64,000 nucleotides of DNA from Promethearchaeota archaeon. GTDB lineage: Archaea; Asgardarchaeota; Lokiarchaeia; Sigyniarchaeales; SOKP01. Positions 6,077 through 37,159 of the stretch are shown here, piece by piece; positions within the stretch are counted from its first letter, which is position 1, and the number at the start of each line of letters is the position of its first letter. The stretch spans positions 1 to 64,000 of the forward strand of contig JBHLOC010000003.1 of assembly GCA_048940925.1 (NCBI GenBank). The letters are read 5' to 3'. The translations under genes and the position numbers were made by a program. The notes below the pieces were generated by a model. That model did no database searches and was not told the origin of the DNA. It was given only the letters and a program-made list of their open reading frames with translations.

Positions 6077-6254
6077 TAAATTAAAAAATAGAAGGATATT
6101 TGATAAGCTTATTTCTATCTTGAAATATCAAATATAATTTATGTGATTAAAAAATTAATCTAAGATTTCTAAATAATTGGATAATTTTTACTATAAAAAT
6201 TAATTATTTTTATGACATTGGCTTATTCATATTTATATCAAGTTAAAAAAATAA

Positions 6255-7043
6255 TTGAAATTGAGTAAAAATATGGATGATCAGATAATTTATAAAACTA
6301 ATAAAGGAGTATATCACATTGTTTTGAACCGACCAGAGAAAAGGAATGCACTTACAAGAATAATGTATGCTGGAATTGCTGATGGTATAGCGAAGGCTGA
6401 AAATGATCCAGATATAAGAATAATTTTAATTTATGGTAATGGAAAATGTTTTTGTGCTGGAAATGACTTAAAAGATTTTCAGGATCTTGACCGAACCTCA
6501 GGTACTAGGTCATCAAGGAATATGACGGAAGAGATCATTAAAGCTAAGAAACCAATATTAGCAGCAGTTCACGGATATGCAGTCGGAATTGGGGTAACTA
6601 TGTTATTGCACTTCGATTTAGTCTACGCGGAAAAAAGTTGCAGATTTCAATTTCCATTTGTAAACTTAGGTTTAGTGCCCGAATTTGGCTCTACATTTCG
6701 TCTTCCTCAATTAATTGGTTATCAGCGCGCAGCAGAATTATTTTTCTTTGGAGATTGGTTTACTGCTCAAGAAGCTGAAAAAATGGGGATTATAAATAAA
6801 ATCTTCTCTGAAGAGCATTTGATAACTAAGGTAATTCTTTTAGCAGAAAATTTAGCTGAAAAACCTCCAACAGCTCTACAAAAAACTAAAGAATTAATTA
6901 AAAAGTATTATATAGAATTGGTACAAAAATTTATGCCAGAAGAAGGAGCGGAATTTGTAAGAAGACAAATATCCCCCGAAGCCCAAGAAGCATTTAGAGC
7001 ATTCTTTGAGCGTAGAAAACCAGATTTTTCAAAATTTTCATAA
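6255..7043 (+). CDS. Crotonase family, enoyl-CoA delta-isomerase-like
   Basis: LNRPEKRNAL, FCAGNDL, AVHGYAVGIG, LGLVPEFG. Confidence 0.85.
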   Translation: MKLSKNMDDQIIYKTNKGVYHIVLNRPEKRNALTRIMYAGIADGIAKAENDPDIRIILIYGNGKCFCAGNDLKDFQDLDRTSGTRSSRNMTEEIIKAKKPILAAVHGYAVGIGVTMLLHFDLVYAEKSCRFQFPFVNLGLVPEFGSTFRLPQLIGYQRAAELFFFGDWFTAQEAEKMGIINKIFSEEHLITKVILLAENLAEKPPTALQKTKELIKKYYIELVQKFMPEEGAEFVRRQISPEAQEAFRAFFERRKPDFSKFS

Positions 7044-7048
7044 ATAGG

Positions 7049-7966
7049 TTACTTTCTATTTTTTTCATACATTTTTAATTCTTCTGAAATGTGTTTATCC
7101 TGTAAACCAAGTGAATTTAACAGCAGATGTAACTGAATTTTTGCATTTTTTGCTTTAATTTTATTTGCTAAATGTAAAGCTTTGATATATTGATCTTTTG
7201 CTTGTTTAATTTCTCCCAAATAAAAAAGAGTTTCACCGACATAACTCAATCCTCTAATAATTAATTCAGAAAAATTTGAATCAATTGCTTTGTTAGTACC
7301 TTTTTTAAAATATCTGAGAGCTTGCTCATAATGGCTGTTTCTCTTTTCAAGTATTCCTAAGTTAAAATAAGAAGTAATAATTCCCTTACTATCACTAATC
7401 TCTTTAAACGCTTTTAAAGATTTTTTGTACAATTCATAGATAATATCCCAGTTCTCCATTTTTTCCTGAATAAAAATGAGATTCCCTAAGCATTCTAATA
7501 AATTATAGATATCATTGTTATCTGAACAAATCGCACTACAATCTAAGAATATTTCACAAGCATCATCTAATTTATTTAATTTGATATAACTATTTCCGAT
7601 TCCTATTAAACAAGTAATTTGTTCTTGAACTTGTTTCAATTCTTCATAGATTTTATAGGATTTTTCATAAGATTCAATAGATCTTTGATATTCACCCTTT
7701 TTAAAAAATAAAGTGCCTAATACACCATAAACTGCTGCTTGACCTAATCGGTCTTTTTGTTTTTTAAAATGATTTAAACAGATAATGTAATTGTATTCTG
7801 AGTCTCTAAATTCATCCAATTGCAACTGGATTAAAGCAATATCGCTTAATTCTTTAATATAGTTTGAATTTTTACCAACTTTTTCTAATTCTTTTAAATT
7901 TTCCAGCTTTTTAGTTAAAAGTTGCTGTAATTCCTCATTTTTAATTTTATTTTCATATTCTGACAT
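7049..7966 (-). CDS. TPR protein
   Basis: Repeated ~40-aa helical units (LGTLFFKKGEYQRSIE, YFNLGIL). Confidence 0.85.
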   Translation of the reverse strand: MSEYENKIKNEELQQLLTKKLENLKELEKVGKNSNYIKELSDIALIQLQLDEFRDSEYNYIICLNHFKKQKDRLGQAAVYGVLGTLFFKKGEYQRSIESYEKSYKIYEELKQVQEQITCLIGIGNSYIKLNKLDDACEIFLDCSAICSDNNDIYNLLECLGNLIFIQEKMENWDIIYELYKKSLKAFKEISDSKGIITSYFNLGILEKRNSHYEQALRYFKKGTNKAIDSNFSELIIRGLSYVGETLFYLGEIKQAKDQYIKALHLANKIKAKNAKIQLHLLLNSLGLQDKHISEELKMYEKNRK

Positions 7967-15617: not shown

Positions 15618-17039
15618 ATGATTAAATTTAGTGATAAACAATTAAAAATCCCCAAACTCATGCGACCAGTGTATTTAGTAACCGTGGGAATGTCAAAGTT
15701 TGATCGAGCATTTCCTGAAACTCGAACGGAAGAATTATGTATTGAAGCATTAACAGCTGCAGCAGATTTCGTCAAAATGACCCCTACTGAGTTAAAACAA
15801 TATATTCACACTTGTTATTATGGTCATTTTGCTGATCACTTTGGAGATCAATTACTTGGCGAAGCTGTAATTCATGATAGATTGGGTCTAGATCCACTTG
15901 GAAATATCGGTATAAAGACGGGTGGTGCTACAGGTGGCTCTGCTATGTGGGAGGCCGTAAAAGCTGTCGCTTCTGGATATAGCGATTGTGCTCTTGCGCT
16001 TGGATGGGAGAGAATGGATGAAGTGCCTACAGATGAGGGTAATCACCTCATTTCTTGTGCTGCAGATAAAGATTGGGAAACACCACTTGGTCATATGTAT
16101 ACAGGTTATTATGCTGTAATGGCTCAGAGATACTGGAAAATTTTTGGTAAAGAAGAAGATTCATTTAGGAAAACTATGGCAGAAGTAGCAGTTAAAAATC
16201 GAGGGTATGCTAGAATGAACCCTTATGCCCACGGACCGATGAAGATAACTGTAGATGATGTAATCAACTCTCCCGTAGTTGCATATCCACTTCGTGCTTT
16301 AGATTGTTGTTTGATGAGCGTGGGATCAGCCTGTGGAATAGTTTGTGATGAAAAAACAGCTTATGAAATTACAAATAAACCTCTTAGGATTTATATTGCA
16401 GCAGGAAGTCATACTTTAAGAGTGGCCGATCGTCGTGATATGAAGATACCTTTATTACCTAATGAATCAAAAAATCAATATGATGATCTAGGGAAAAAAT
16501 TCCCGGGCGGAGATCGTTATCCTGGATTTACAAGCTTTTTAGCTGCAAGAATGGCTGCTTATTATGCATATCATATGTCTGGTGTTGTTAATCCCAGTGA
16601 AGATCTTGATTTAGTTGAACTTCATGATGCGTTTACTATTAGTGATATTCAAACATATGAAGACATCGGAATAAGACCTTATGGGGAAGGGAGAAATTAT
16701 ATTGAAAGTGGAGACGCATATGTAACTAATCCAAATACTAAAAAACCAGGAAAATTACCTAGCAATCCATGTGGAGGATTAATAGGGTGTATGCATGCTG
16801 TAGGAGCAACCGGACTTATGCAGATTGCTGAAATTGGATATCATATTTGGAACCGATGGGATGAGATCCATGAGCCTGAGGAGAAATGGAAAGCATTTGG
16901 AAGAGAGAAACCAAAAGATTGGCAAAGCTTACAAGTTAAAGGAGCAAAAAGAGGATTGGCGATTAGCCATGCAGGAGTAGGTTCTCATGTTACTTGTACA
17001 ATATTAATGGATCCCAATCAATTATTAAAGGAGGATTAA
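15618..17039 (+). CDS. Thiolase-family (SCP-x/Ltp-like) protein
   Basis: VAVKNR, PLRALDCC, VELHDAF, NPCGGL, HAVGATG. Confidence 0.88.
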   Translation: MIKFSDKQLKIPKLMRPVYLVTVGMSKFDRAFPETRTEELCIEALTAAADFVKMTPTELKQYIHTCYYGHFADHFGDQLLGEAVIHDRLGLDPLGNIGIKTGGATGGSAMWEAVKAVASGYSDCALALGWERMDEVPTDEGNHLISCAADKDWETPLGHMYTGYYAVMAQRYWKIFGKEEDSFRKTMAEVAVKNRGYARMNPYAHGPMKITVDDVINSPVVAYPLRALDCCLMSVGSACGIVCDEKTAYEITNKPLRIYIAAGSHTLRVADRRDMKIPLLPNESKNQYDDLGKKFPGGDRYPGFTSFLAARMAAYYAYHMSGVVNPSEDLDLVELHDAFTISDIQTYEDIGIRPYGEGRNYIESGDAYVTNPNTKKPGKLPSNPCGGLIGCMHAVGATGLMQIAEIGYHIWNRWDEIHEPEEKWKAFGREKPKDWQSLQVKGAKRGLAISHAGVGSHVTCTILMDPNQLLKED

Positions 17040-17041
17040 AA

Positions 17042-17644
17042 ATGGTAAAAAAAGATGATGAAAAAGGTTATGTTGATATAATTAATGGCAGATATAAACC
17101 AAGAGGTAAATTTCATATTATAGAAGAGAATCAGCCAATTTTCAATAAAGATACAGGGAAATTAGCAGGAGTGACTAATCCTAGAGATATGACCTATATT
17201 CACTCTTATGGCGGGGAAGCAATATTTTTTAATTCTCTGGGGAAAGGTATACTTATGGCTTCTAGATGTGATAACGACAACTGTGTTGCAAAAGGTTCTA
17301 TTTTTGAACCTTTTAGAATTTTTTGTCCTGATTGTTTAAGAAGAGCTACTCCAATTGATATAACAGAGAAAGCTCGAAAAACTGCAAAAATCCATTCTTT
17401 TATTGTGACTCATCGATCTGGGGCATTTAATACACTTCCCAAACCAATTAAATTTATTAATGTCGAATTTGATGAAGAAGTAGTCACAATTCTTATGAGT
17501 ATTCTAGCAGTCGGAGAACCAGAAATTGGGAAAAAAATAATTCCAATTTTTCGAACAAAGAGTCCAACTTACACGATTATGGATCTGAGGTTTGTTTTAG
17601 AAGGAACAAAGGAATTAGAATTACCTGAAGGATTTACTTTTTAA
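17042..17644 (+). CDS. DUF35 Zn-ribbon/OB-fold acyl-CoA-binding protein
   Basis: SYGG, C..C and CPDC; start placed at ATG 17042 after GGAGG rather than TTG 16994. Confidence 0.8.
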   Translation: MVKKDDEKGYVDIINGRYKPRGKFHIIEENQPIFNKDTGKLAGVTNPRDMTYIHSYGGEAIFFNSLGKGILMASRCDNDNCVAKGSIFEPFRIFCPDCLRRATPIDITEKARKTAKIHSFIVTHRSGAFNTLPKPIKFINVEFDEEVVTILMSILAVGEPEIGKKIIPIFRTKSPTYTIMDLRFVLEGTKELELPEGFTF

Positions 17645-17680
17645 TTCTGAAATTTTTTTTTTATTCAATTTTATTTTTTT

Positions 17681-18769
17681 TTAGTTAAAGAATAACTTGA
17701 ACTTTTTACAGAGTTCAGGGTCTAAATTATTACAGGTTTCGATAAATTGGTTAATTGTACCTAGATGATATCTAATGAATTCAAACTTAGAATTAATTCC
17801 TTTTGATAATTTGCTGATAACTTTCTGTATTGGAATTATCAATTGGGGTCGTTGATAGAATTGAATCGCTTTTATTTCAATATTAGAGATTAATCCTAAT
17901 TCAATATGCTTTCTAACAAGTTGTAAGTAAGCTTCGATTAGTAATTTCTCCCGTTGTTGCCATTTATTTTCTTTTAATATTTTTAATAAAATAGGTTGCA
18001 ATGTTCTTGCAATTGGTAATTGACCAAAAACAATAGCGAACCACTTCTCATAAGGGATATATTTTTTCTCAAGCATAAATGCCATTTGCATAATATACCT
18101 TACTAAGCGAGAGGCTTCGATTCTTGAACCTAAGTCATCACCTCTTCCGCCAGTTCGTCCTACAAATGCTATTTCTTGAGCAATACGGTTCCATTGTGTA
18201 ATTATTCTTAATTTCCAAATTGAATCTGGATAATATTTTAAAGCTTCTCTAGCATGAGTTAATTCTCCGCAACTATCAAAAAAAATCTTTCCTGATGTAA
18301 ATTCCAATAACAACTGTTCAGGAATTGTGAACCAATCAATTTCATTAATTTTCCAGAACTCAAGTGCAAGATATTGTTTTAAATAACGTTGAACTGTATA
18401 AACTTCAATTCGATGATTGACAGGGCTACGTTTTTTTGGTTTAAGAAATTGATTCATGTTATTATTCGGATCTGGCTCACTCCAGTTTGTAGAATATCCA
18501 TGAAATGTTAAAGGTAAGCTTTTGCTCAAGAATTCTTTTATCGGCTTTTCATATTTAGTATAATCTATTTCTTTTAAAAACAGTTGTAATCTCGGTCCCC
18601 AATGATGATCTGTAGACATTTCATCATCTAAACCAATAACTTCAGATCCTCTACCGATTAAAGCGACTGCGTACTCTAAATCAGGATATTGTTTTTCTAA
18701 AAGTTCTTTTAAAATATCTGTATAAAACAGTTCAGATAATTTTAAACCGGGGATAAAATGAACTGTGAT
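17681..18769 (-). CDS. DUF4037-family nucleotidyltransferase-like protein; probable non-AUG start
   Basis: Frame stays open 50 codons upstream of the track start, encoding FIPGLKLSELFY...ALIGRGSEVIGLDD before MSTDHHWGPR; PYEKW motif. Confidence 0.75.
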   Translation of the reverse strand: MTVHFIPGLKLSELFYTDILKELLEKQYPDLEYAVALIGRGSEVIGLDDEMSTDHHWGPRLQLFLKEIDYTKYEKPIKEFLSKSLPLTFHGYSTNWSEPDPNNNMNQFLKPKKRSPVNHRIEVYTVQRYLKQYLALEFWKINEIDWFTIPEQLLLEFTSGKIFFDSCGELTHAREALKYYPDSIWKLRIITQWNRIAQEIAFVGRTGGRGDDLGSRIEASRLVRYIMQMAFMLEKKYIPYEKWFAIVFGQLPIARTLQPILLKILKENKWQQREKLLIEAYLQLVRKHIELGLISNIEIKAIQFYQRPQLIIPIQKVISKLSKGINSKFEFIRYHLGTINQFIETCNNLDPELCKKFKLFFN

Positions 18770-18845
18770 TTTAATACACCATTTTTGTTAAAATAAAAAA
18801 ATAATAAAGAAAATAAGGATAAGTTAAACTTTAAATTTTGTTAAC

Positions 18846-19721
18846 TTATTGTAGCAAATTAAAGATTTTGCGAGTTTCATCTGGATTTGCTACTTCTCTT
18901 CCTGCCAGTTTTGCTACTTTTGCAGCCCATTCTACTTGTTCCCATGAACCTTTTGCCAATCGCCCAACTGGAACGCGAATATTATCTTCCAAACCAACAC
19001 GAATGTGTCCTTCCATTGCTGCTGCGCATAATCCCGCTCTGAATTGATCTTTAGCTACTCCACATACACTCCAGGAGGAATCAGGAGGAATTAAATTGAG
19101 CAATCCTGCTAAATTTTGGTAAGAAAAAGGAATCCCTCCTAACACACCAAATACAAATTGAAAATGAAGAGGTCGATCAAATAGGTCTTTTTGTTTACTA
19201 AGAAATAAAATATTATATAAACCTCCGAAATCATATACCTCAATCTCAGGTTTAGTTTTGGCTTTTTTCATCTCTATTAAAAGTGTTTGAATGGTTTGAA
19301 AAGTATTTCTAAAAATTCCATCAGCATTTCCAATAATTTCCCCTGTTTTAAAATTACCTATACTATAATTCATTGAGTTAGTATTTAATGATGATATCAA
19401 TGGTTTAAATGTCCTTGTAGGTGCAATTCTTTCCTCAAGTGTCCTACCTAATGAACTAGTTATATTGATTAAAATTTCTGGAGCTTTCTCATGAATATTA
19501 TCTATTATCGCTCTTATTTTGTCTAAATTAGCTGTAGGATATCCTTTTTCAGGATCTCTTGCATGAATATGTACTACTGATGCTCCCGCTTCATAAGACT
19601 TTTTTGCTTCATCTCCAAATTCTTCAGGAGTATAAGGAATAGCAGGATTTTGATTTTTCATTGTCCAAGATCCAGCAAGAGCGGCAGAAATTACTAATTT
19701 ATTTGATAAATCTTTGGACAT
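18846..19721 (-). CDS. Beta-keto acid cleavage enzyme (BKACE/DUF849, Kce-like)
   Basis: NPAIPYTPEE, HIHARD, PEIEVYD, HIRVGLEDN. Confidence 0.92.
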   Translation of the reverse strand: MSKDLSNKLVISAALAGSWTMKNQNPAIPYTPEEFGDEAKKSYEAGASVVHIHARDPEKGYPTANLDKIRAIIDNIHEKAPEILINITSSLGRTLEERIAPTRTFKPLISSLNTNSMNYSIGNFKTGEIIGNADGIFRNTFQTIQTLLIEMKKAKTKPEIEVYDFGGLYNILFLSKQKDLFDRPLHFQFVFGVLGGIPFSYQNLAGLLNLIPPDSSWSVCGVAKDQFRAGLCAAAMEGHIRVGLEDNIRVPVGRLAKGSWEQVEWAAKVAKLAGREVANPDETRKIFNLLQ

Positions 19722-19946
19722 TATTCAATCACAGGAACAATAAGTCCTTTAATCGTTTATTTAAGTTTAATAACTTAAAATTTTAAATTTAAAAATAAAA
19801 ATAAATACTAAAATTTAACTGTTTAGAGCTATATCTTTGGAATTACAATAAATTGAAAAAATCCTCATTTATAATATTATTTTAAATCGCATAATTCACA
19901 TAATTAATCATCATTTTATTTTCAATCAAAAAATGGTTTCAAAATT

Positions 19947-20408
19947 ATGGCTGAAAAATTAATAGTTACAAATAAAGGACCTGTAAGAGCAGAATTCTCT
20001 TTTTGGGTGGGACAATACATGGATAAATTTTATGATGCATTAGAGCATAAAAAAATTATCGGTAATAAATGCCCAAAATGTGAAGATGTTTTTGTTCCGC
20101 CTAGAAAAATATGTGGAAAATGTAATGAAAAGATACCATTTGATAATAATTGGGTGGATTTACCAGATACTGGCTCTCTAAAAAACTATACAATAACATA
20201 TTATAAAGTAAATGATAGGTCGAGTCGAAAAGTGAAAAAACCTCAGATTATTGGGATGGTACAAATTGATGGAAGTAGGACTACGATTGTAAACCGATTA
20301 ATAGATATTAGCCCAGAAGAAATTAAGATTGGAATGAATGTTAAAGTACAATGGGAGGCGAAAACTAAAGGAGATCCTTCGGATATTAGGGGTTTCGTGA
20401 AGTTGTAG
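19947..20408 (+). CDS. DUF35 Zn-ribbon/OB-fold protein
   Basis: CPKC..VPPRKICGKC, IGMNV. Confidence 0.88.
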   Translation: MAEKLIVTNKGPVRAEFSFWVGQYMDKFYDALEHKKIIGNKCPKCEDVFVPPRKICGKCNEKIPFDNNWVDLPDTGSLKNYTITYYKVNDRSSRKVKKPQIIGMVQIDGSRTTIVNRLIDISPEEIKIGMNVKVQWEAKTKGDPSDIRGFVKL

Positions 20409-20422
20409 GAGGTGACAATAAA

Positions 20423-21565
20423 ATGCAAAAAGTAGGTATAGTTGGATATAATCAAGTAAAACTTTATTCAGATGCAAAGTATGGTCGTTATGAAATGATT
20501 TTTGAAGCAGTTAGAGGGGCGATAGATAATGCCGGGTTAAAGAAGAAAGATATAACTACTGTAATTTCCTGTACAAATGATTATTATGAAGGTCGAACGA
20601 TATCAAATTGCTTTACAGTTGAAGTTGGAGGAGGATATTTAACAGATGAGAGTAAAGTAGAAATGGATGGTGCTCATGCTGTTTTATATGGATTAATGAG
20701 AATATTATCAGGCAATCACAAATTAGCTGTTGTTTGGGGCGGAAGCATGGCTTCATGTTTTCCATATCATTCTGCACGTTTGTATGAGACAGATCCTACA
20801 TGGGAGCGTCCTCTTGCTTATGTAAATGACATAACATCCGCTGGGTTTCAAATGAGAGCATATATGGAGAAATTTGGAGTTACTACTGAAGATATTGCTA
20901 AAGTGGCAGTTAAAAACAGACAAAATGCTGCAAAAAATCCTTTAGCCTTAGAAGAAGCTCAAAATGCAAATATTACGGTTAAAGATGTTATAGAATCAGA
21001 AATATATGCTGATCCGGTTACTGAATTAATGGTTGCACAACCCTGTGATGGTGTAGCTGCATTGTTATTAGCTCCTGAAAAACAGGCTTTAAAAATTACA
21101 GATAATCCAGTTTGGATTACTGGAGTAGGATATAGCCAAGAAACTTACTATCTCGGTGATCGAAATCTGGCTGAAAGTAAATCTATGGAAATGGCAGGTA
21201 AAATGGCTTTCAATGCAGCGGGAATTAAAAATCAGAAAGAGGAAATCGATTTAGCAGAATTATTTGAAACAAATGCTCATGAGGAATTAATATTAACAGA
21301 AGCATTAGGACTTGCTGAGAAAGGAAAAGCTTCTGCTATTGCTTCAGGTATTGATGGGGAATTACCAATTAATCCTTCCGGGGGTGCTATAGGGGGTAAT
21401 CCTCCCTGTGCAACTGGATTAATAAGAATAATTGAAGCAACCAAACAACTTAAAGGAGAAGCAAACGGATATCAAGTTAAAGAAGCAAGGAAAGCTATAG
21501 CATCAGGTCAAATAGGGATGTGCGCTCAAAATAATATAGTATATATATTGGAGGGGACAAATTAA
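20423..21565 (+). CDS. Thiolase-family protein, Ltp4-like
   Basis: DYYEGR, ESKVEMDGAHA, NPSGG. Confidence 0.85.
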   Translation: MQKVGIVGYNQVKLYSDAKYGRYEMIFEAVRGAIDNAGLKKKDITTVISCTNDYYEGRTISNCFTVEVGGGYLTDESKVEMDGAHAVLYGLMRILSGNHKLAVVWGGSMASCFPYHSARLYETDPTWERPLAYVNDITSAGFQMRAYMEKFGVTTEDIAKVAVKNRQNAAKNPLALEEAQNANITVKDVIESEIYADPVTELMVAQPCDGVAALLLAPEKQALKITDNPVWITGVGYSQETYYLGDRNLAESKSMEMAGKMAFNAAGIKNQKEEIDLAELFETNAHEELILTEALGLAEKGKASAIASGIDGELPINPSGGAIGGNPPCATGLIRIIEATKQLKGEANGYQVKEARKAIASGQIGMCAQNNIVYILEGTN

Positions 21566-21566
21566 A

Positions 21567-22814
21567 ATGGGTCGTCAAGTCGCAATAGTTTCTGCTGGTT
21601 TTAGTGAACATGCCTCAAAACGCTCTGATGTTAGTATGCCAGAATTGGTAAGTGAAGCAATAGAAGATTGCTTAAAAAAAGTCCCAAGCGTAAGTTTAGA
21701 TGATATTGATGCTTATGTAAATGGGAATATGCCCGCTTTTGAAGGGGCAAATATTCCTGAATTATGGATGACGGATTGGATGGGTGCGCGAAACAAACCG
21801 CTAATGCGAGTTACTACAGGAGGTACAACAGGTGGAACAGTAGCAATAGCTGGGTATTATTCTGTTGCAGCAGGTTTACCAGGAATTGATACCGTTCTTG
21901 CTATTGGTTTTGAACAACAAAGTCAAGGTGATACCGCTACAGGATTAGCAAGTGTAGCATATGGTGAAATTACTGTGTATAATACTTTAGGAATTACTTA
22001 TGAGAGATTAACCCGGATTTTATCTGCAGGTGCAGCGATTGGTATAGCATCATATCAAGCAACTAATTATATGCATAAATCAAAAATAACAGAAGAAGAT
22101 TTAGCGAGAGTAGTTGTACAAAATAGACACAATGCAGCAAAAACATGGTGGGCTCACTTAAAAATGCCAAATCTTACAATCGAGGATGTGCTTGATACAC
22201 CATATATTTCGTATCCATTAAGATATGGGATGGTTTGTCCAGCTAGTGATGGTGCTTGTGCAGTTTTATTTACAACAGAAGAAAAAGCTAAAGAAATGGG
22301 CGATATCCCTGTTTATGTAAATGGGGTAGCTAGTGTTTCCCATGAAACAGCTGTACTCGGATATGATTGTACTGGTACAGGACAAATAGATCCTTCTGAA
22401 CAGTTAGGTGCTATGAAAACATCTGAATTAGCATATGGACAAGCAGGTATTTCATTCCCAAGAAAGGAAATTGATTATGCTGAGGTTTATTCACCTTTTC
22501 CTAATCAAGAGCTCATGTGGGTTGAAAAATTAGGTTTATTTGAAGAAACTACAGCTCCTCAGATGTATGAGAATGGAGTAACCTCCTTAAAAGGTGAATT
22601 ACCAATATGTTGCTCAGGAGGTGTCAATTCTACAAATGCTATTGGAGCATCTGCTTTAGAACGTCCTGCAGAAGCAGCCCTTCAAATAATGGGGAAAGCT
22701 AGCAATCAAGTTCCAAAAACTGTACATACAGCTATAGGTCATGGGTGGGGAGGAATACTTAATCTATGCACAATGTTAGTTATGTCAGATGAACCTCAAA
22801 GAAAATGGAGGTAA
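21567..22814 (+). CDS. Thiolase-family protein, Ltp3-like
   Basis: FEG, RVTTGGTTGG, CPASDGACA, AEVYSPF, SGG..NAIGAS. Confidence 0.85.
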   Translation: MGRQVAIVSAGFSEHASKRSDVSMPELVSEAIEDCLKKVPSVSLDDIDAYVNGNMPAFEGANIPELWMTDWMGARNKPLMRVTTGGTTGGTVAIAGYYSVAAGLPGIDTVLAIGFEQQSQGDTATGLASVAYGEITVYNTLGITYERLTRILSAGAAIGIASYQATNYMHKSKITEEDLARVVVQNRHNAAKTWWAHLKMPNLTIEDVLDTPYISYPLRYGMVCPASDGACAVLFTTEEKAKEMGDIPVYVNGVASVSHETAVLGYDCTGTGQIDPSEQLGAMKTSELAYGQAGISFPRKEIDYAEVYSPFPNQELMWVEKLGLFEETTAPQMYENGVTSLKGELPICCSGGVNSTNAIGASALERPAEAALQIMGKASNQVPKTVHTAIGHGWGGILNLCTMLVMSDEPQRKWR

Positions 22815-22820
22815 TTAAAA

Positions 22821-23351
22821 ATGTCAAAACGTACACAAAGAAAATCTTTAGACTATGTTAAAAAGGATTATGTGAGAACTAGAACAATGCCAGGTAGTTG
22901 GTATATATCTAATTATAAATTTAAATTTAATATCACTCACATGCAGCCTTTTATAGACAAGTTAAAAGAAAAAAAGTTAGTTGGACTGAAATGTTCAGGA
23001 TGTAATCGAGTATTTTTTCCACCTAGATACGTATGTGGACAGTGTATGATCAAACCTGATCAATGGGTTGATCTACGAGAAACTGGTGAAGTTTCTACTT
23101 TCGCAATAGCTTACCTAAAAGATCCAGATACATCTAAAGTTATAGAAAAACCAATGGTTTTAATCCGTCAAGATGGAGCTGATACAGCATATATGATAGA
23201 ATTAGCTCCTGATGTTGATGCAAAAGATACCTACATTGGAATGCCAGTGAAAGTTCATTGGGTGGATAATCCTACTGGAAATCTAAGTGATATTGAATAT
23301 TATGATTTAGTGGAAGATAACGCGAAAGATATAGCTCTACGTGAAGATTAA
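22821..23351 (+). CDS. DUF35 Zn-ribbon/OB-fold protein
   Basis: CSGC..FPPRYVCGQC, IGMPV. Confidence 0.88.
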   Translation: MSKRTQRKSLDYVKKDYVRTRTMPGSWYISNYKFKFNITHMQPFIDKLKEKKLVGLKCSGCNRVFFPPRYVCGQCMIKPDQWVDLRETGEVSTFAIAYLKDPDTSKVIEKPMVLIRQDGADTAYMIELAPDVDAKDTYIGMPVKVHWVDNPTGNLSDIEYYDLVEDNAKDIALRED

Positions 23352-29433: not shown

Positions 29434-29805
29434 TTATTTAGTTTTTAAAACAAGGGTTATAGCTCTTGTAAGTCGGATAATATCCATAACTTTACCTTTG
29501 TCTACAGTTATTTGTTCTCTGCTTATTGCGTGCGTAAAATCCCCCTTTCCTTCGCAAATTCTTACGAGAGCAAGGTTTTCACCAGAAATTACAATCTCAG
29601 CTGAAGATAAGATTCCTTGAGTGATTATTGTTTTCTGATCTTTTATCTTTAAATAAAATGGATCTTCATTGTCTAAATTAAATTGGAATGTCATCTCCCA
29701 ATTGACTGGTTTGCCGCCTATATCTGTTACAAATACTTGTTGAGCCTTAGGAAGTGTATTCATTTTGTCAATAATTCTAGTTAAATTTTCATAAGCTACT
29801 CCCAA
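29434..29805 (-). CDS. SCP2 sterol-carrier-like domain protein
   Basis: FQF.L, final gene of thiolase-DUF35 operon; size and pattern fit SCP2. Confidence 0.7.
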   Translation of the reverse strand: MGVAYENLTRIIDKMNTLPKAQQVFVTDIGGKPVNWEMTFQFNLDNEDPFYLKIKDQKTIITQGILSSAEIVISGENLALVRICEGKGDFTHAISREQITVDKGKVMDIIRLTRAITLVLKTK

Positions 29806-29807
29806 TT

Positions 29808-30302
29808 TTATTCTCCTCCCTCATATTCAGATTTTTTTATCCAATTTTCATATTCATCTTCAGGAACAAAGAAAAAATCAGTCATTTTGCCTCTCCTTTC
29901 TTTTTGAAACACAGCTCTCACTTTTTTTCCTTTCTTAATCTTTGAGGGCACTAAATTCTCCGAAAAAATTCCCTGCAATATAGCAGTATCAGCTCCTTCT
30001 AATTTAATATATCCTACTGCATATGGAATGTTTTTAATAAAAGCAGATGTTGTAAACCAAACTATAGTACTAACTTCAATAGTTCCAGTCTGTTTCACTT
30101 CAATCCATTCAGCAGGAGCATAACAATCAGAGCAGTTAATTCTGGGGGGCATCCATACTTTTCCACATTTAGAACATTTAGTCCCCAATAGTGTTGTATT
30201 GTTCATTAGTTCCATGAAAAACTTGGACTGCCCTCCCATGGTATATTTATAATTAATTCTAATAATATCTCTTATTTCATGGACTTGAAACTCTTCTGTC
30301 AT
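29808..30302 (-). CDS. DUF35 Zn-ribbon/OB-fold protein
   Basis: CSKC..MPPRINCSDC; overlaps thiolase stop (ATGA). Confidence 0.88.
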   Translation of the reverse strand: MTEEFQVHEIRDIIRINYKYTMGGQSKFFMELMNNTTLLGTKCSKCGKVWMPPRINCSDCYAPAEWIEVKQTGTIEVSTIVWFTTSAFIKNIPYAVGYIKLEGADTAILQGIFSENLVPSKIKKGKKVRAVFQKERRGKMTDFFFVPEDEYENWIKKSEYEGGE

Positions 30303-31567
30303 TTTTCCAAACCCTCCTCATTAGACATTACAATTACAGCGGCATAGGCAGCCCCTGGACCCCCTATTGAATGAGAAATAGCTCTACCGTTTTCAATTGT
30401 TTTAATTTGATGTTTACCAGCATCTTCACGTATTTGTAATGCTGCTTCTCCCGTAGACATAATACCAGTTGCACCTACGGCGTGTCCACAACCAATTAAA
30501 CCACCAGATGGACAACATGGCAACTCTCCATCCATCCTTGGTCCTCCTTCTTCAATCCATTTTCCCCCTTTTCCGAATGAAACAAAACCAAGTTCTTCAT
30601 ATGAAATCACCTCTTGTCCGCTAAATGCATCATGAAGTTCTGCTATATCTATTTGTGATTTTATTTTTTCATAGTCCAATCCTGCCATCTTATATGCTGC
30701 TTTTGCAGCATAGATATTGGAGTATAATCTTCCCATATCTTCTCTATTTCCTATAAAGCAATCAGTATTTGCTGCACCAACTCCAGTTATCCAAATTGGC
30801 TCTTCGACTTTTAATTCCTTTACTTTTTCTTCGTTTGCTAAAATTAATGCAGCAGATGCTTCTGAATACAGGCAACAATCAAGCATCTTAAAAGGATAGC
30901 ATATAATTCTTGAATTCATTACATCTTCAACTGTTATTTTCATTGGTGATTGTGCTTTAGGGTTATTCATCGCATTTCCATGATTTTTTACAGATACAAG
31001 TGCCATTTGTTCTTCTGTTGGATTTCCAAATTCCTCAAAATGTGCATTAACCATACTTACATAAGAACTTGCCGCCATCATACCCATAGGATATTCATAA
31101 GTCATATCAGCTGAATAAGCAATTGCATTCAATACTTCGGGTGTAGTAGTGCCTGTTTGTTAATGACAAATAGCGATAAGCCATTAATTTTCATCATAAC
31201 AGTCATTACACTTTTCTACACCAATGCAAAGGCATAAATCTGAGAGTCCTGATGCCACTTCAGCATACGCCATTCTAACTGTATAACCACCAGTTGCACC
31301 TCCCGTAGCAATTCTAGTTCCCGGTTTGTTATTCATTCCAAGATAGCTATTAATAAAAATGTCTGGCATAAATTGTCGCTCGAACAATTCGTTATATATT
31401 CCATAAACTGTTGATTGAATGTCTTCATGAGTTATTTCGGCACCATTTTTATTAGAATCTTCAATAGCAAGCTTAGTTGCATCAAACGCAAGCTCAAAAT
31501 AAGTCTTATCTAAGTACCGGGCTTTAAATGGAGTAATTCCTATACCAATAATCGCAACCTTTTTCAA
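30299..31567 (-). CDS. Thiolase-family protein interrupted by a 30-nt insert; joined product 412 aa = complement(join(30299..31159,31190..31567))
   Basis: Track ORFs 31184-31567 and 30299-31132 are same-frame N- and C-terminal halves; joined reading GVEKCNDCYDE|QTGTTTPEVLNAIAYSAD is collinear with paralog 15618 (GWERMDEV...ISCAAD). Confidence 0.85.
31160..31189 (-). other. Candidate bulge-helix-bulge (BHB) mRNA intron, 30 nt
   Basis: Minus-strand insert AATTAATGGCTTATCGCTATTTGTCATTAA with two in-frame TAA; folds by hand with its flanks into a BHB; exact excision restores the frame. Confidence 0.55.
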
Positions 31568-31735: not shown

Positions 31736-32248
31736 TTAAATATTTCTCTGATTCAAGCGATAATCTTTCAAAGTACTTACACTTTCACCAATAAGATCAA
31801 TGAATACTTTAATTTCCTTTTCTAAATTCCTTAAAACCTTTTGATATTTTACGACTTCGATTTTATCATCATTAGATAAATTTTCAATATCTATACTTTT
31901 AATCAAATTACTAATTTCTTGTTTACTTTCCACTGCTTGGTGAATCCAAGTTTGTAGTCCATTAATCGCTAAATCAAAGAAATTTAGATGCATTTGATAT
32001 AAAAAATGCTCTCTTGAAGGATTCTTGTATTTTTGCAATATTCCCATCTTAATCATTTGATCAACTGCTCTTGATATTGATGAAATTGAATACCCTGTTA
32101 AATCAGAAAGAACTTTCTGATTTAATTCTCGTCCTTCAAGAAAAAATGTAGCCATAATTCTTCCAAAAATTATTGGCAAACCTCTCTTATCAACAATTCT
32201 CTCGTAAATTTGTAAAAATTTAGATCTGATTTCCTCAACATAACTCAT
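31736..32248 (-). CDS. GbsR/MarR-family transcriptional regulator
   Basis: RGLPIIFGRI, wHTH LSDLTGYSISSISRA, C-terminal helix. Confidence 0.8.
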   Translation of the reverse strand: MSYVEEIRSKFLQIYERIVDKRGLPIIFGRIMATFFLEGRELNQKVLSDLTGYSISSISRAVDQMIKMGILQKYKNPSREHFLYQMHLNFFDLAINGLQTWIHQAVESKQEISNLIKSIDIENLSNDDKIEVVKYQKVLRNLEKEIKVFIDLIGESVSTLKDYRLNQRNI

Positions 32249-34386: not shown

Positions 34387-35490
34387 TTATTTTATTTGGA
34401 GAAATATGTTAAAACAGATATCTTGAATTTTTTGAAATTCATTTAAATCTTCAACTTTTCCTATCATAATTAGAGCAATATTATTAAAATTAATACAAAT
34501 TGTAGTTATTCTCTCTCCACCGATAGAACAGTTAAATAACACTCTATTATATACTTCCTCACTCAATTTTTTTGAAGAAGTTAATACACTTATAGTTTCA
34601 GGTATATAATCAGTGCAATCATACTCCTCATCAAATAGCTTCGAGTAGATAATTTTTCCAATCAAATCTACTAAGTATACTTGTTTAATTTTAGAATCCC
34701 AAATTAATTTCTCAAATTCTTCTGCTATTTTTTTAGGTTTCTTAACATATTTTTCTTTACTCTTGAAGAAATCCAAATCTAAAAACGCTTTTTCAATATT
34801 ATCTACTAATTGGTATTGTTTTACAATAAGTATCTTTTTTCTAATCTCTACTAATATATTTTCATTCCTTACGGTAGTTAATAATATCCATTTTGCATTT
34901 TCATTAAGATTATTTTGATATAAAAATTGAGCTGAGTTAACGATCAACGGAATAAGAAAACTTACTTTTTCTTTATTGACAAATTGTTTAGCATGTATAT
35001 AAAAAACATGTCCTGCTTTTGGTTCAAGAAGTATTATCGATTTAAATATTCCTCCTTCATCAATCTGTTGAATTGACTTAATTAGTGTATCTAGTCCATG
35101 AGCAAAGATAATATCTTCCATTTTTTTATTAAATTTATTAAATTTAGTTATTTCACCATCAAATTCTTTGTTTAGTGGTTCTCTAAACATTTTCGTAAAG
35201 TTTTCCATTATATCATGAACAAGCGAATGTAAAACTTCTATTAATTCTTCATTCTTACTTGTTGCGACAAAAGTGAGTTTTTGTGTATATTCAGCCCATT
35301 TTTCAAAAATTATATTAGTTTCTTTCAATTTTAATGCTTTAATATCTTCTCCTCTTTCCACACTTGCAAAATTATTTAAAGCTGTTAAAAAACCGCTAAT
35401 CAAATCATCATCACTAGTTCTACTACTTTTTTCTGAATGCCAACTAAATAACAACTGACCTGATTCATTGATTATAAATAAGTCATCCAT
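34387..35490 (-). CDS. Longin-like domain protein with additional roadblock/profilin-like domains
   Basis: LFIINESGQLLF...DLISGFLTALNNFA...F...F; later VYLVDLIGKIIYS. Confidence 0.7.
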   Translation of the reverse strand: MDDLFIINESGQLLFSWHSEKSSRTSDDDLISGFLTALNNFASVERGEDIKALKLKETNIIFEKWAEYTQKLTFVATSKNEELIEVLHSLVHDIMENFTKMFREPLNKEFDGEITKFNKFNKKMEDIIFAHGLDTLIKSIQQIDEGGIFKSIILLEPKAGHVFYIHAKQFVNKEKVSFLIPLIVNSAQFLYQNNLNENAKWILLTTVRNENILVEIRKKILIVKQYQLVDNIEKAFLDLDFFKSKEKYVKKPKKIAEEFEKLIWDSKIKQVYLVDLIGKIIYSKLFDEEYDCTDYIPETISVLTSSKKLSEEVYNRVLFNCSIGGERITTICINFNNIALIMIGKVEDLNEFQKIQDICFNIFLQIK

Positions 35491-35653
35491 GATAATATTA
35501 AAAATGATTTTAAATTAAATGAATATGAAGTTTTTTTTAACTTTAACCTAATATAGTATAATAAAAAGATTTTCTCCATTGCTAATTAGTATTACCTAAT
35601 TTTTAATAGATATAAGAGATTTTACCCTATCAAGGGTAAATTGGTAATTACTT

Positions 35654-37159
35654 ATGGATAAAAAAAACATTCCAATTATTATAGGTGCAGCACAATTCAC
35701 ACAGCATAAGGGTACTTCCAAACCATTAGATCCACTCAGTTTAATGGCTAAGACTAGTAAAATGGCTATTGATGATAGCAAATCGAAAAAATTAGTAGAA
35801 TACATCGATGCTGTATATATGATCAACATTATTTCATGGTCTTATGAAGATGGTCCGGTTGAGCTCAGTACAAGATTGGGTATTAAACCTATTAAAAAAG
35901 TATATTTACCTGAGGGTGGACATTCACCCCAGATGTTGGTTAATCGAGCTGCTAACGACATATCATCTGGAGAATTTCGCTGTATTCTTGTCACTGGTGG
36001 AGAGGCAGCTTATTCTATATTTAAAACTTTTCAAAACCAACCTCCACCATATTGGCCAGAAAGAAAAATACCTAAATACATAGAAAAAAAAGCGTGGGAA
36101 TATACTAATAAAGTTGAGAGGAAATATGGAATGATAAATGCACCACTCACATACGCTATTTTAGAAACAGCATTGAGGGCTTCATCTGGTCGAAATCCAC
36201 AAAAACATAATAAATATCTTGGAAAGCTCTTTGAACATTTTTCTAAACACGCATCGAATAATCCTTATAGCTGGACTCAAGAAAATTATACAGCAGAAGA
36301 AATAATTACAGCTTTTCCTGAGAATCGATATATTGATTATCCTTATACAAAACGTATGTGTGCTAATGTTTTTGTAGATCAGTCAGCTTCTCTTTTGATT
36401 ACAAGTGAAGAACTTGCTAAAACACTTAATATTGACCATAAAAAATGGATATATGTAATGGGGGGTGCTGATTTATATAATATCCCACATGTTACTCAAC
36501 GTCCGAAACTTGACAACTCTCCTGCGGTAAAGGAAGCAACTAGAATTGCTCTAAGACAAGCAGGACTGAAACTTAAAGATATTGATAAATTTGACTTATA
36601 CAGCTGTTTTCCTTCTATAGTTGAGATTATTATGAATGAGCTCGAGATCAAAGAGGATGATCCTCGTGATTTAACAATTACAGGTGGGCTTCCCTATTTT
36701 GGTGGACCACTAAGCTTTTATTCTTTACATTCTATTATAAATGCCGTAGATTTAATTCGAAAAAATCGTTCTTTAAAGATATTCATTGTAGCAAATGGTG
36801 GGTATAACACTAAGCTATCTGTTGGAATTTATGGTTCTGAACCCCCTGTAATACCTTGGGGAACCCATAAGGATCAAGAAATCCAACAATCGATTTTAAA
36901 AGATGCTTTACCAGAACCTGTTGAAATGGCGAATGGTAAACTTGTCATCGACGGATATAGTATTAAGTATGACCGATCTGGTCAACCTGAAAAAGCAATT
37001 TTTATTGGAACACTTCAAAATGGAAAACGTGCTCTTGCCATTATTAAATCGGGATTAGATATAAACCTAAATCTAGAAGCACAGGAGCTTGTAGGAAAAA
37101 CTTGTATTATTGAATATGATCCTCAAGAAGATCAAAATCTAGTACTCAGTTTTGAATAA
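35654..37159 (+). CDS. Thiolase-like protein (DLYSCFP subtype) with C-terminal extension
   Basis: GGHSPQ, GGEA, YPYTKRM, VDQSA, DLYSCFP, TITGGLPYFGGP, ANGG. Confidence 0.85.
   Translation: MDKKNIPIIIGAAQFTQHKGTSKPLDPLSLMAKTSKMAIDDSKSKKLVEYIDAVYMINIISWSYEDGPVELSTRLGIKPIKKVYLPEGGHSPQMLVNRAANDISSGEFRCILVTGGEAAYSIFKTFQNQPPPYWPERKIPKYIEKKAWEYTNKVERKYGMINAPLTYAILETALRASSGRNPQKHNKYLGKLFEHFSKHASNNPYSWTQENYTAEEIITAFPENRYIDYPYTKRMCANVFVDQSASLLITSEELAKTLNIDHKKWIYVMGGADLYNIPHVTQRPKLDNSPAVKEATRIALRQAGLKLKDIDKFDLYSCFPSIVEIIMNELEIKEDDPRDLTITGGLPYFGGPLSFYSLHSIINAVDLIRKNRSLKIFIVANGGYNTKLSVGIYGSEPPVIPWGTHKDQEIQQSILKDALPEPVEMANGKLVIDGYSIKYDRSGQPEKAIFIGTLQNGKRALAIIKSGLDINLNLEAQELVGKTCIIEYDPQEDQNLVLSFE

What the first reader, a model, noticed from the sequence alone, without database searches (positions are those of the whole stretch)
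31160..31189. Candidate bulge-helix-bulge intron inside a protein-coding (thiolase) gene
Seen: the minus strand reads ...GAC TGT TAT GAT GAA [AAT TAA TGG CTT ATC GCT ATT TGT CAT TAA] CAA ACA GGC. This 30-nt insert with two in-frame stops splits an otherwise intact thiolase; neither half shows other lesions and the DUF35/SCP2 operon is intact. Folding by hand gives an exon helix CUGUU(A)U/AAACAG, a 4-bp central helix GAUG/CAUU, two 3-nt bulges AAA and AAC, and an intron stem AU(U)AAUGGC-UUAUC-GCUAUU(U)GU. Established: the archaeal splicing endonuclease EndA cuts after the second nt of each bulge and RtcB ligates; the well-known archaeal mRNA case is crenarchaeal cbf5. Applying that rule removes exactly 31160-31189 and gives YDE|QTG, a 412-aa thiolase. 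Inference: tRNA-type splicing of a metabolic mRNA in an Asgard-like archaeon. Caveat: a register shifted by one pair (AUGA/UCAU, bulges AAA/UAA) looks at least as stable, would excise 28 nt and would frameshift.
Basis: partly seen in the sequence, partly recalled or inferred. Interest (0 to 1): 0.95.

Follow-up and report, generated by a model that had tools for sequence, protein, structure and literature searches.

The report
Mobile tRNA-type intron in Asgard thiolase
A 30-base insert that seems to break a thiolase-like gene of a Lokiarchaeia (Asgard) archaeon is very probably a real intron, cut out of the mRNA by the tRNA-splicing enzymes; it arrived recently by gene conversion and is one of many such mini-introns, whereas the papers I could search confirm this inside an archaeal coding sequence for only one gene (cbf5).

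Summary
Confirmed. Removing 31160-31189 gives a 412-aa thiolase-like protein 95% identical to intact orthologs. The insert also occurs in contigs of other samples.

Comparative evidence for EndA/RtcB splicing is strong:
- This gene family holds 43 distinct 28-37-nt bulge-helix-bulge (BHB) inserts at 8 sites, up to 4 per gene. All full-length copies read intact after removal; dN/dS is 0.047 versus 0.048 (first 23 carriers versus intact copies).
- 14 variants at this exact site covary, including an exon-intron pair.
- The genome's only aIF2-gamma and RpoA' genes carry such inserts, often frameshifting in relatives and splitting codons. This excludes pseudogene and readthrough there and argues against ribosomal bypass.
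- An (alpha-beta)2-type EndA and RtcB are present.

New here: the intron lies in a 265-nt exon patch 96% identical to a distant intron-bearing copy and 80% to the intron-less sister, so it arrived by lateral gene conversion. The driver is unknown.

Not shown: any spliced RNA. The 28-nt register is predicted about 2 kcal/mol more stable, though conservation favours 30 nt.

The scan has reported this intron class before on other DNA (about 80 notes, including this genome); I found no paper on it.

The parts
31190..31567 (-). Exon 1 of a thiolase-like gene (TTG start, 126 codons, ends in Y-D-E)
   Evidence: NCBIfam PRK06064 positions 1-119
31160..31189 (-). 30-nt BHB intron: 1 nt of the 5' bulge, 23-nt hairpin (9-bp stem, 5-nt loop), 4-nt central-helix strand, 2 nt of the 3' bulge; two in-frame TAA
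31190..31195 (-). Exon half of the central helix (GAUG, 31195-31192) and first two nt of the 5' bulge; predicted cut between 31190 and 31189
   Evidence: cut rule from PMC2738675
31160..31165 (-). Intron half of the central helix (CAUU, 31165-31162) and first two nt of the 3' bulge; predicted cut between 31160 and 31159
31153..31202 (-). Whole BHB including the exon-exon helix, whose pairs hold in all 14 variants
   Evidence: helix 1 100% paired
30299..31159 (-). Exon 2 (286 codons plus stop; HDAF and GHAVGATG motifs)
   Evidence: PRK06064 positions 118-387
31067..31361 (-). Gene-conversion tract (265 nt of exon plus the intron): 96% identical to intron-bearing L332, 80% to intron-less sister L002
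   Evidence: 45 of 46 informative sites inside versus 20 of 133 outside; 0 of 200 permutations
29808..30302 (-). DUF35/ChsH2-type zinc-ribbon and OB-fold partner, overlapping the thiolase stop
   Evidence: PF12172 and PF01796 over cut-off
29434..29805 (-). Small SCP2-like protein, third gene of the operon
   Evidence: PF02036 E 0.009, below cut-off; conserved neighbour
31736..32248 (-). MarR/GbsR-like HTH regulator upstream
   Evidence: weak Pfam MarR hits

Best explanation
The insert is a true intron of the archaeal BHB class inside an mRNA. The transcript folds a BHB; the cell's (alpha-beta)2-type EndA cuts after the second nucleotide of each bulge; RtcB joins the exons to give the 412-aa protein. 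It belongs to a class of about 30-nt hairpin introns at conserved codons of many genes in this Lokiarchaeia family. It entered this copy recently by lateral gene conversion together with about 170 nt upstream and 90 nt downstream of exon. Shown: sequence, geometry, covariation, intact and selected exons, presence of the enzyme genes, the mosaic tract. Inferred: cleavage, ligation, the exact register, the direction of transfer. The driver of spread is unknown; my guess is double-strand-break homing by an endonuclease acting in trans (about 40%), otherwise ordinary recombination.
For: (1) Motif-free thiolase census: 23 of 166 distinct copies have inserts; BHB in 15 of 21 (relaxed) and 12 of 21 (strict) versus 2-4% and 1-2% in two nulls that also take the best equivalent placement. 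After protein-level placement all 20 distinct inserts have at least 3 of 4 central pairs and no gene has another lesion. With 12 more loci: 43 introns, 8 sites, up to 4 per gene, full frame restored. (2) This site: 14 variants, 91.7% of cells paired, 17 both-side changes, 0 of 500 shuffles; exon GAU to GAC is matched by intron A to G in 3 sequences. (3) dN/dS 0.047 in carriers versus 0.048, also between carriers of the same intron (0.04-0.05 in most such pairs, 0.11 for L107/L163). (4) The single aIF2-gamma gene has an insert in GHVDHG|K; 24 variants in 9 genera plus one other family, 19 of them frameshifting, with helix pairs ATGG:CCAT, ACGG:CCGT, CGGC:GCCG. The single RpoA' gene has two inserts around a 4-nt exon, each found alone in relatives. 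(5) EndA alpha with Tyr/His/Lys, closest to PDB 3p1z_B, a second subunit lacking Tyr and His, and RtcB. (6) Conversion tract.
Against: No spliced RNA, cleavage or peptide was seen. The BHB is not the predicted MFE (-6.0 versus -13.1) and the 28-nt register is 1.8 kcal/mol better; pair counts do not separate the registers. Two intact paralogs exist, so this copy could tolerate poor splicing. The intron is recent in this copy, so its own dN/dS mostly predates the gain. The motif alone is not above decoys genome-wide (418 versus 387 and 401). The sequences are related, so counts overstate independent events.
Confidence: 0.9

Rival explanations
1. The class is spliced, but this intron is mostly cut in the shifted register (28 nt) or poorly, so this copy is a weakly expressed passenger backed up by two paralogs.
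For: The 28-nt register is predicted 1.8-4.1 kcal/mol more stable in all five variants tested; paralogs C80 and C88 are intact.
Against: Column 41 is only U or C and always pairs with G8; A15-U37 holds in 14 of 14, while the first intron-stem pair of the 28-nt register is broken in 3 of 14. The 3' bulge starts with A at 21 of 22 sites; the 28-nt register would start with U. The same ambiguity occurs in aIF2-gamma and RpoA' variants (14 of 63 introns).
Confidence: 0.04
2. Programmed ribosomal bypassing (T4 gene 60, mitochondrial byps): the insert stays in the mRNA and the ribosome hops over it.
For: A stop codon and hairpin follow the junction, as at known hop elements (PMC8211752); sizes are similar.
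Against: No matched or synonymous take-off and landing codon in 20 of 20 thiolase inserts, and 5 have no phase-0 placement. In this genome the aIF2-gamma P-loop Lys codon exists only as A|AA across the junction. Bypassing does not predict exon-intron helix covariation.
Confidence: 0.02
3. Pseudogene, or a split gene whose halves are translated separately (public gene callers list 127-aa and 277-aa pieces).
For: Two stops; a TTG start lies 9 codons downstream; databases hold a 227-member cluster of N-terminal pieces, those listed being 127-157 aa; paralogs exist.
Against: Purifying selection and no second lesion in 23 carriers; breaks fall at 8 sites, including codon 11 and right after HDAF; four breaks in one gene; essential single-copy genes are broken inside catalytic motifs.
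Confidence: 0.02
4. Removal by another route: precise DNA excision in part of the population, or an RNA nuclease other than EndA.
For: The inserts are mobile at DNA level; intron-less relatives co-occur in the same samples.
Against: No conserved termini or transposase; only the RNA pairing is conserved, including G-U pairs and the bulge offsets of EndA substrates. The intron-less contigs that could be judged differ at other positions, so they are other strains.
Confidence: 0.02

Closest known systems
BHB intron of the cbf5 pre-mRNA in Desulfurococcales and Sulfolobales (Watanabe 2002; Yokobori 2009, PMC2738675)
   Same: Short intron in a coding sequence, BHB or relaxed BHB, cut between bulge nt 2 and 3, conserved borders with variable interior, hetero-oligomeric EndA, some relatives intron-less.
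   Different: cbf5 is one site in one gene, read by the authors as gain and loss, and confirmed by cDNA. Here there are 8 sites in this gene and at least 22 sites seen overall, several per gene, in Asgard archaea, with direct signs of lateral conversion and no RNA proof.
Short hairpin (under 50 nt) BHB introns of Thermoproteales 16S rRNA genes (PMC4496867)
   Same: BHB hairpins without an ORF at conserved positions, patchy, spread by co-conversion (Pog.S1205 carried by the endonuclease of Pog.S1213).
   Different: Those are in rRNA next to endonuclease-coding introns; here they are in mRNA, and no endonuclease was found in or next to the thiolase loci.
Non-canonical tRNA introns of Asgard archaea (PMC11291895; bioRxiv 10.64898/2026.10.13.758758)
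   Same: Same phylum, size class (median 22-23 nt there; about 28-30 nt in several tRNAs of this genome) and motif; repeated gains.
   Different: Those papers cover tRNA only and found no general route of arrival; their focal classes are Jordiarchaeia and Atabeyarchaeia.
Haloferax HVO_1309 5'UTR intron (PMC7714728)
   Same: An mRNA cut by EndA at BHB sites.
   Different: Lies in the untranslated leader; a single case.
Collaborative or trans homing in T4-like phages (PMC2988022)
   Same: An intron without endonuclease at a conserved site, with co-converted exon flanks.
   Different: Group I ribozymes with a known endonuclease; here no endonuclease is tied to the site.

Membership tests
Archaeal BHB (EndA/RtcB) intron | 4-bp central helix between the exon 3' end and the intron 3' end | tested here: met
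   4 of 4 here; 98.2% of cells over 14 variants, with an exon-intron compensatory change
Archaeal BHB (EndA/RtcB) intron | Two 3-nt bulges; cutting after nt 2 gives the correct exon junction | tested here: met
   Gives the ortholog sequence here and at the 7 other thiolase sites
Archaeal BHB (EndA/RtcB) intron | Flanking helices h (exon-exon) and h' (intron) | tested here: met
   h 100% and h' 83% of cells paired, closing pairs 14 of 14
Archaeal BHB (EndA/RtcB) intron | The productive register is the one adopted | tested here: inconclusive
   Energy favours 28 nt; conservation and bulge consensus favour 30 nt
Archaeal BHB (EndA/RtcB) intron | Host encodes EndA and RtcB | tested here: met
   Two EndA subunits, one with the catalytic triad, and a full RtcB
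Archaeal BHB (EndA/RtcB) intron | Excision from RNA in vivo or by EndA in vitro | not testable with these tools
   Needs RNA of this organism or a cleavage assay
Homing (endonuclease-mobilised) intron | Patchy presence with co-converted exon flanks | tested here: met
   Tree; tracts in the window, and L027 versus L109 0.86 near versus 0.47 far
Homing (endonuclease-mobilised) intron | Endonuclease encoded in or beside the intron | tested here: not met
   30 nt, no ORF; this genome's LAGLIDADG-like proteins had no tblastn hit in the thiolase loci; other nuclease families were not searched
Homing (endonuclease-mobilised) intron | An endonuclease in trans that cuts the intron-less allele | not testable with these tools
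   LAGLIDADG-like ORFs lie elsewhere in the genome; targets unknown
Translational bypass element (gene 60, byps) | Matched take-off and landing codons | tested here: not met
   0 of 20; split Lys codon in aIF2-gamma
Group I or II self-splicing intron | Ribozyme core of hundreds of nt | tested here: not met
   30 nt; no Rfam match near a gathering score

The most novel reading that the evidence does not exclude
One Asgard family (Lokiarchaeia) has a widespread, still-spreading population of tRNA-type introns in mRNAs, including essential genes, multi-intron genes and micro-exons that may need ordered splicing. They move between gene copies by gene conversion, so mRNA splicing is routine and indispensable in these close relatives of eukaryotes, by a route independent of the spliceosome.
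Probability: 0.75. Interest if true: 0.9.

Novelty: new variant of a known kind. Interest (0 to 1): 0.82.

Why it matters
Published work that I could search confirms splicing inside an archaeal coding sequence for one gene, cbf5. If this holds, mRNA splicing is common and essential in a lineage close to eukaryotes. It would give a prokaryotic precedent for intron-rich protein genes and, from my own knowledge, a parallel to RtcB-dependent XBP1/HAC1 splicing. The conversion tract addresses the problem that the 2026 Asgard tRNA preprint names as open, how such introns arrive: at least some spread by homologous transfer with their flanks. In practice, Asgard gene catalogues are miscalled. A 227-member cluster holds N-terminal fragments of this one protein, and marker genes used for phylogenomics (aIF2-gamma, RpoA', EF-2) are truncated in some genomes.

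Tried and rejected
- Search for sequencing runs: no RNA holder listed. This says nothing about expression.
- Source of the insert inside the genome: no copy longer than chance (best 15 nt). Rfam: nothing.
- Motif-only genome scan: 418 hits versus 387 and 401 for two decoy geometries, still level after coding filters. It is a lead list only. aIF2-gamma, RpoA', Elp3, AMP phosphorylase and the C35 site were first seen there, so the site-level helix count (22 of 22 with at least 3 pairs, null 23%) is partly circular; the unbiased figure is.
- EF-2 as proof of essentiality: dropped, because the genome has a second, intact EF-2 paralog.
- Long apparent inserts of 144-345 nt in this genome: repeat or antisense artefacts, not introns.
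- Homing endonuclease beside the thiolase: none found with the four LAGLIDADG-like queries.
- 400 kb (9%) of G044, a single-contig genome of another family in the same order: no intron found, with limited homolog cover. EF-2 and RpoA' of G006, G044, G050 and G055 showed no internal stops; the short frames in G045 were not explained by a BHB insert.
- Co-conversion is not universal: several carrier pairs show no local excess.
- The 30-nt mode is partly ascertainment, since in-frame inserts rank higher in tblastn; aIF2-gamma inserts are mostly 29 nt.
- Seven literature searches on archaeal or Asgard introns found no report of Asgard mRNA introns. The library lacks most subscription papers, and PMC2738675 notes earlier unconfirmed predictions in other genes.

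Full report
Observation. The minus strand carries a thiolase-like gene from 31567 to 30299, broken at 31160-31189 by 30 nt with two in-frame TAA. Deleting them gives 412 aa, 95% identical to the intact ortholog L002 with no gap at the junction. The nearest named records are Promethearchaeota/Lokiarchaeota MAGs. The insert is in contigs of three runs, one from another study.

The thiolase family. A census that used no motif found inserts in 23 of 166 distinct copies. BHB geometry at the homology-defined junction was met by 15 of 21 (relaxed) and 12 of 21 (strict), against 2-4% and 1-2% for shuffled or relocated inserts. After placement by protein score, all 20 distinct inserts have at least 3 of 4 central pairs and no carrier has another stop or frameshift. 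Public collections hold a 227-member cluster of N-terminal fragments of this protein. Twelve loci taken from it (chosen for being broken, so no measure of frequency) raised the total to 43 distinct introns at 8 sites, 28-37 nt long, up to four in one gene, with full 417-420-aa frames after removal in the ten full-length loci. Median dN/dS is 0.047 for carriers and 0.048 for intact copies.

This site. Fourteen variants align without gaps. 91.7% of cells pair, 17 cells show changes on both sides, and no shuffle of 500 reaches that; slid structures give 31-60%. One pair links exon and intron: the synonymous change GAU to GAC is matched by A to G in the intron in three sequences. Overall pair counts cannot separate the 30-nt and 28-nt registers, but details favour 30 nt. 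Column 41 is only U or C and always pairs with G8; the first intron-stem pair holds in 14 of 14, versus 11 of 14 for the other register; and the 3' bulge begins with A at 21 of 22 sites, where the 28-nt register has U. The sequences are related, so these are not independent events.

The genome. A motif-free search for split genes gave a peak at 30-32 nt (10 of 31 junctions), including EF-2, methylmalonyl-CoA mutase, a small GTPase, an E1-like gene and an acyl-CoA ligase (names from motifs and paralogs, EF-2). A motif-first list, which alone is no better than decoys, added aIF2-gamma, RpoA', Elp3 and AMP phosphorylase. The thiolase has two intact paralogs and EF-2 has one, so the test of necessity rests on the single-copy genes. 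aIF2-gamma has one match in the genome and an insert in GHVDHG|K. The same site is occupied in 24 distinct sequences from nine genera of the family and one genome of another family; 19 are 29 or 32 nt, so readthrough is impossible, and the helix covaries between exon and intron. In this genome the P-loop lysine codon exists only across the junction, which a hopping ribosome cannot build. RpoA' (one match) has a 30-nt and a 35-nt insert around a 4-nt exon; each occurs alone in relatives, and removing both restores GHFGHIELARP.

Machinery. Two EndA-family genes and one RtcB are present. One EndA subunit has the Tyr, His and Lys of the active site and is closest to PDB 3p1z_B; the other lacks Tyr and His. 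I infer an (alpha-beta)2 enzyme, the kind that PMC2738675 ties to cbf5 splicing and relaxed motifs.

Origin. Carriers of the site-378 intron fall in four separate places of the gene tree. In the window, exon nt 207-471 are 96% identical to L332, a copy that is 78% identical elsewhere and carries a near-identical intron, and only 80% identical to the intron-less sister L002, which is 91-92% identical elsewhere. 45 of 46 informative sites side with L332 inside the tract and 20 of 133 outside; 0 of 200 permutations reach this. Contigs of another sample (X5) span both ends of the tract, which argues against a chimeric assembly. The local drop against L002 makes the window's lineage the likely recipient (inference). 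Some other pairs show the same pattern and some do not. Co-converted flanks are the mark of double-strand-break homing (PMC2988022) and of short rRNA hairpin introns in Thermoproteales (PMC4496867), but ordinary recombination can leave such tracts too. No endonuclease was found in or next to the thiolase loci; LAGLIDADG-like ORFs lie elsewhere in the genome, two beside intron-bearing acyl-CoA ligase copies.

Mechanism. Shown: structure, covariation, intact selected exons, enzyme genes, mosaic tract. Inferred: EndA cuts, RtcB joins, 30 nt leave (0.9). Rivals are poor or shifted splicing of this copy (0.04), bypass (0.02), pseudogene or split protein (0.02), and another excision route (0.02).

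Known and new. It works like the cbf5 intron and meets every sequence criterion of a BHB intron that I could test except the register, which is inconclusive; excision itself is untested. PMC7714728 names cbf5 as the only earlier mRNA case and adds a 5'UTR intron. PMC2738675 notes unconfirmed predictions in other genes. The Asgard papers deal with tRNA introns. I found no paper on Asgard mRNA introns, within a library that lacks most subscription journals. This scan has noted the class about 80 times in at least 38 genomes, including this genome and a thiolase-like gene in another genome. Those are unchecked AI notes, read after my own census, and are not counted as evidence.

Verdict. A real and very probably spliced mRNA intron; a new variant of a known kind. 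Interest 0.82.

Noticed in passing
L196 (G000:C62:7922-7990, minus): RpoA' has two BHB introns around a 4-nt exon. The second central helix is 4 of 4 only after the first intron is removed (3 of 4 before), so splicing may be ordered. G224 has the same pair.
   Followed up: partly
L194 (G000:C68:45858-45887, minus); L231-L269: aIF2-gamma intron in the P-loop, 24 variants, also in G135 of another family with a fully compensated helix.
   Followed up: yes
L195, L197-L206 (G000 C32, C40, C64, C71, C78, C87, C17 and C57, C30, C18, C29, C35): Further 30-32-nt BHB inserts in EF-2, Elp3, AMP phosphorylase, methylmalonyl-CoA mutase, a small GTPase, an E1-like gene, an acyl-CoA ligase (two copies), a carbonic-anhydrase-like gene and others. 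Orthologs were not checked for each.
   Followed up: partly
L325/L326, L327, L330, L027, L109, L337: Thiolase copies with 2-4 introns; L027, L109 and L337 have two introns around a 16-nt exon.
   Followed up: yes
window 31190, run X1 record 4: A co-occurring relative has a different hairpin insert starting 3 nt further on, like the site-381 introns of L042 and L334.
   Followed up: partly
G000:C57:75427-76551, C17:about 6206-7300, C70:60160-61158, C26:about 35290-36264, C73:64663-65388: Free-standing LAGLIDADG-like ORFs; the C17 and C57 ones abut the intron-bearing acyl-CoA ligase genes, and the C73 one lies next to a tRNA-Arg.
   Followed up: partly
window 31290-31310: The thiolase fold lacks the usual nucleophile Cys (reads ATGGAT); at least 65 of 133 intact orthologs share this exact motif, so it is a family trait, not decay. 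With its DUF35 partner it may be an aldolase-type enzyme (from memory, untested).
   Followed up: partly
G000:C50:20676-20777, C73:83135-83238, C40:233774-233876: Many tRNA genes are 102-106 nt long; some have 28-nt D-arm BHB introns of like build that ARAGORN misplaces. The genome also has a tRNA-Sec (C3).
   Followed up: partly
window 15618-23348: Three more thiolase-fold genes (about 30% identity to the finding's gene) with small partner ORFs; none looked interrupted.
   Followed up: no
L048, L099, L033-L095 record titles: Several near-identical thiolase loci sit in MAGs titled as bacteria or as other Asgard classes (Mcinerneyibacteriota, Deferrimicrobium, Odin-, Hod-, Hermodarchaeota): mis-binning, loose titles or transfer.
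   Followed up: no
L338, L339 (G045): RpoA' and one EF-2 frame are short in this single-contig genome; no BHB insert explains it.
   Followed up: partly
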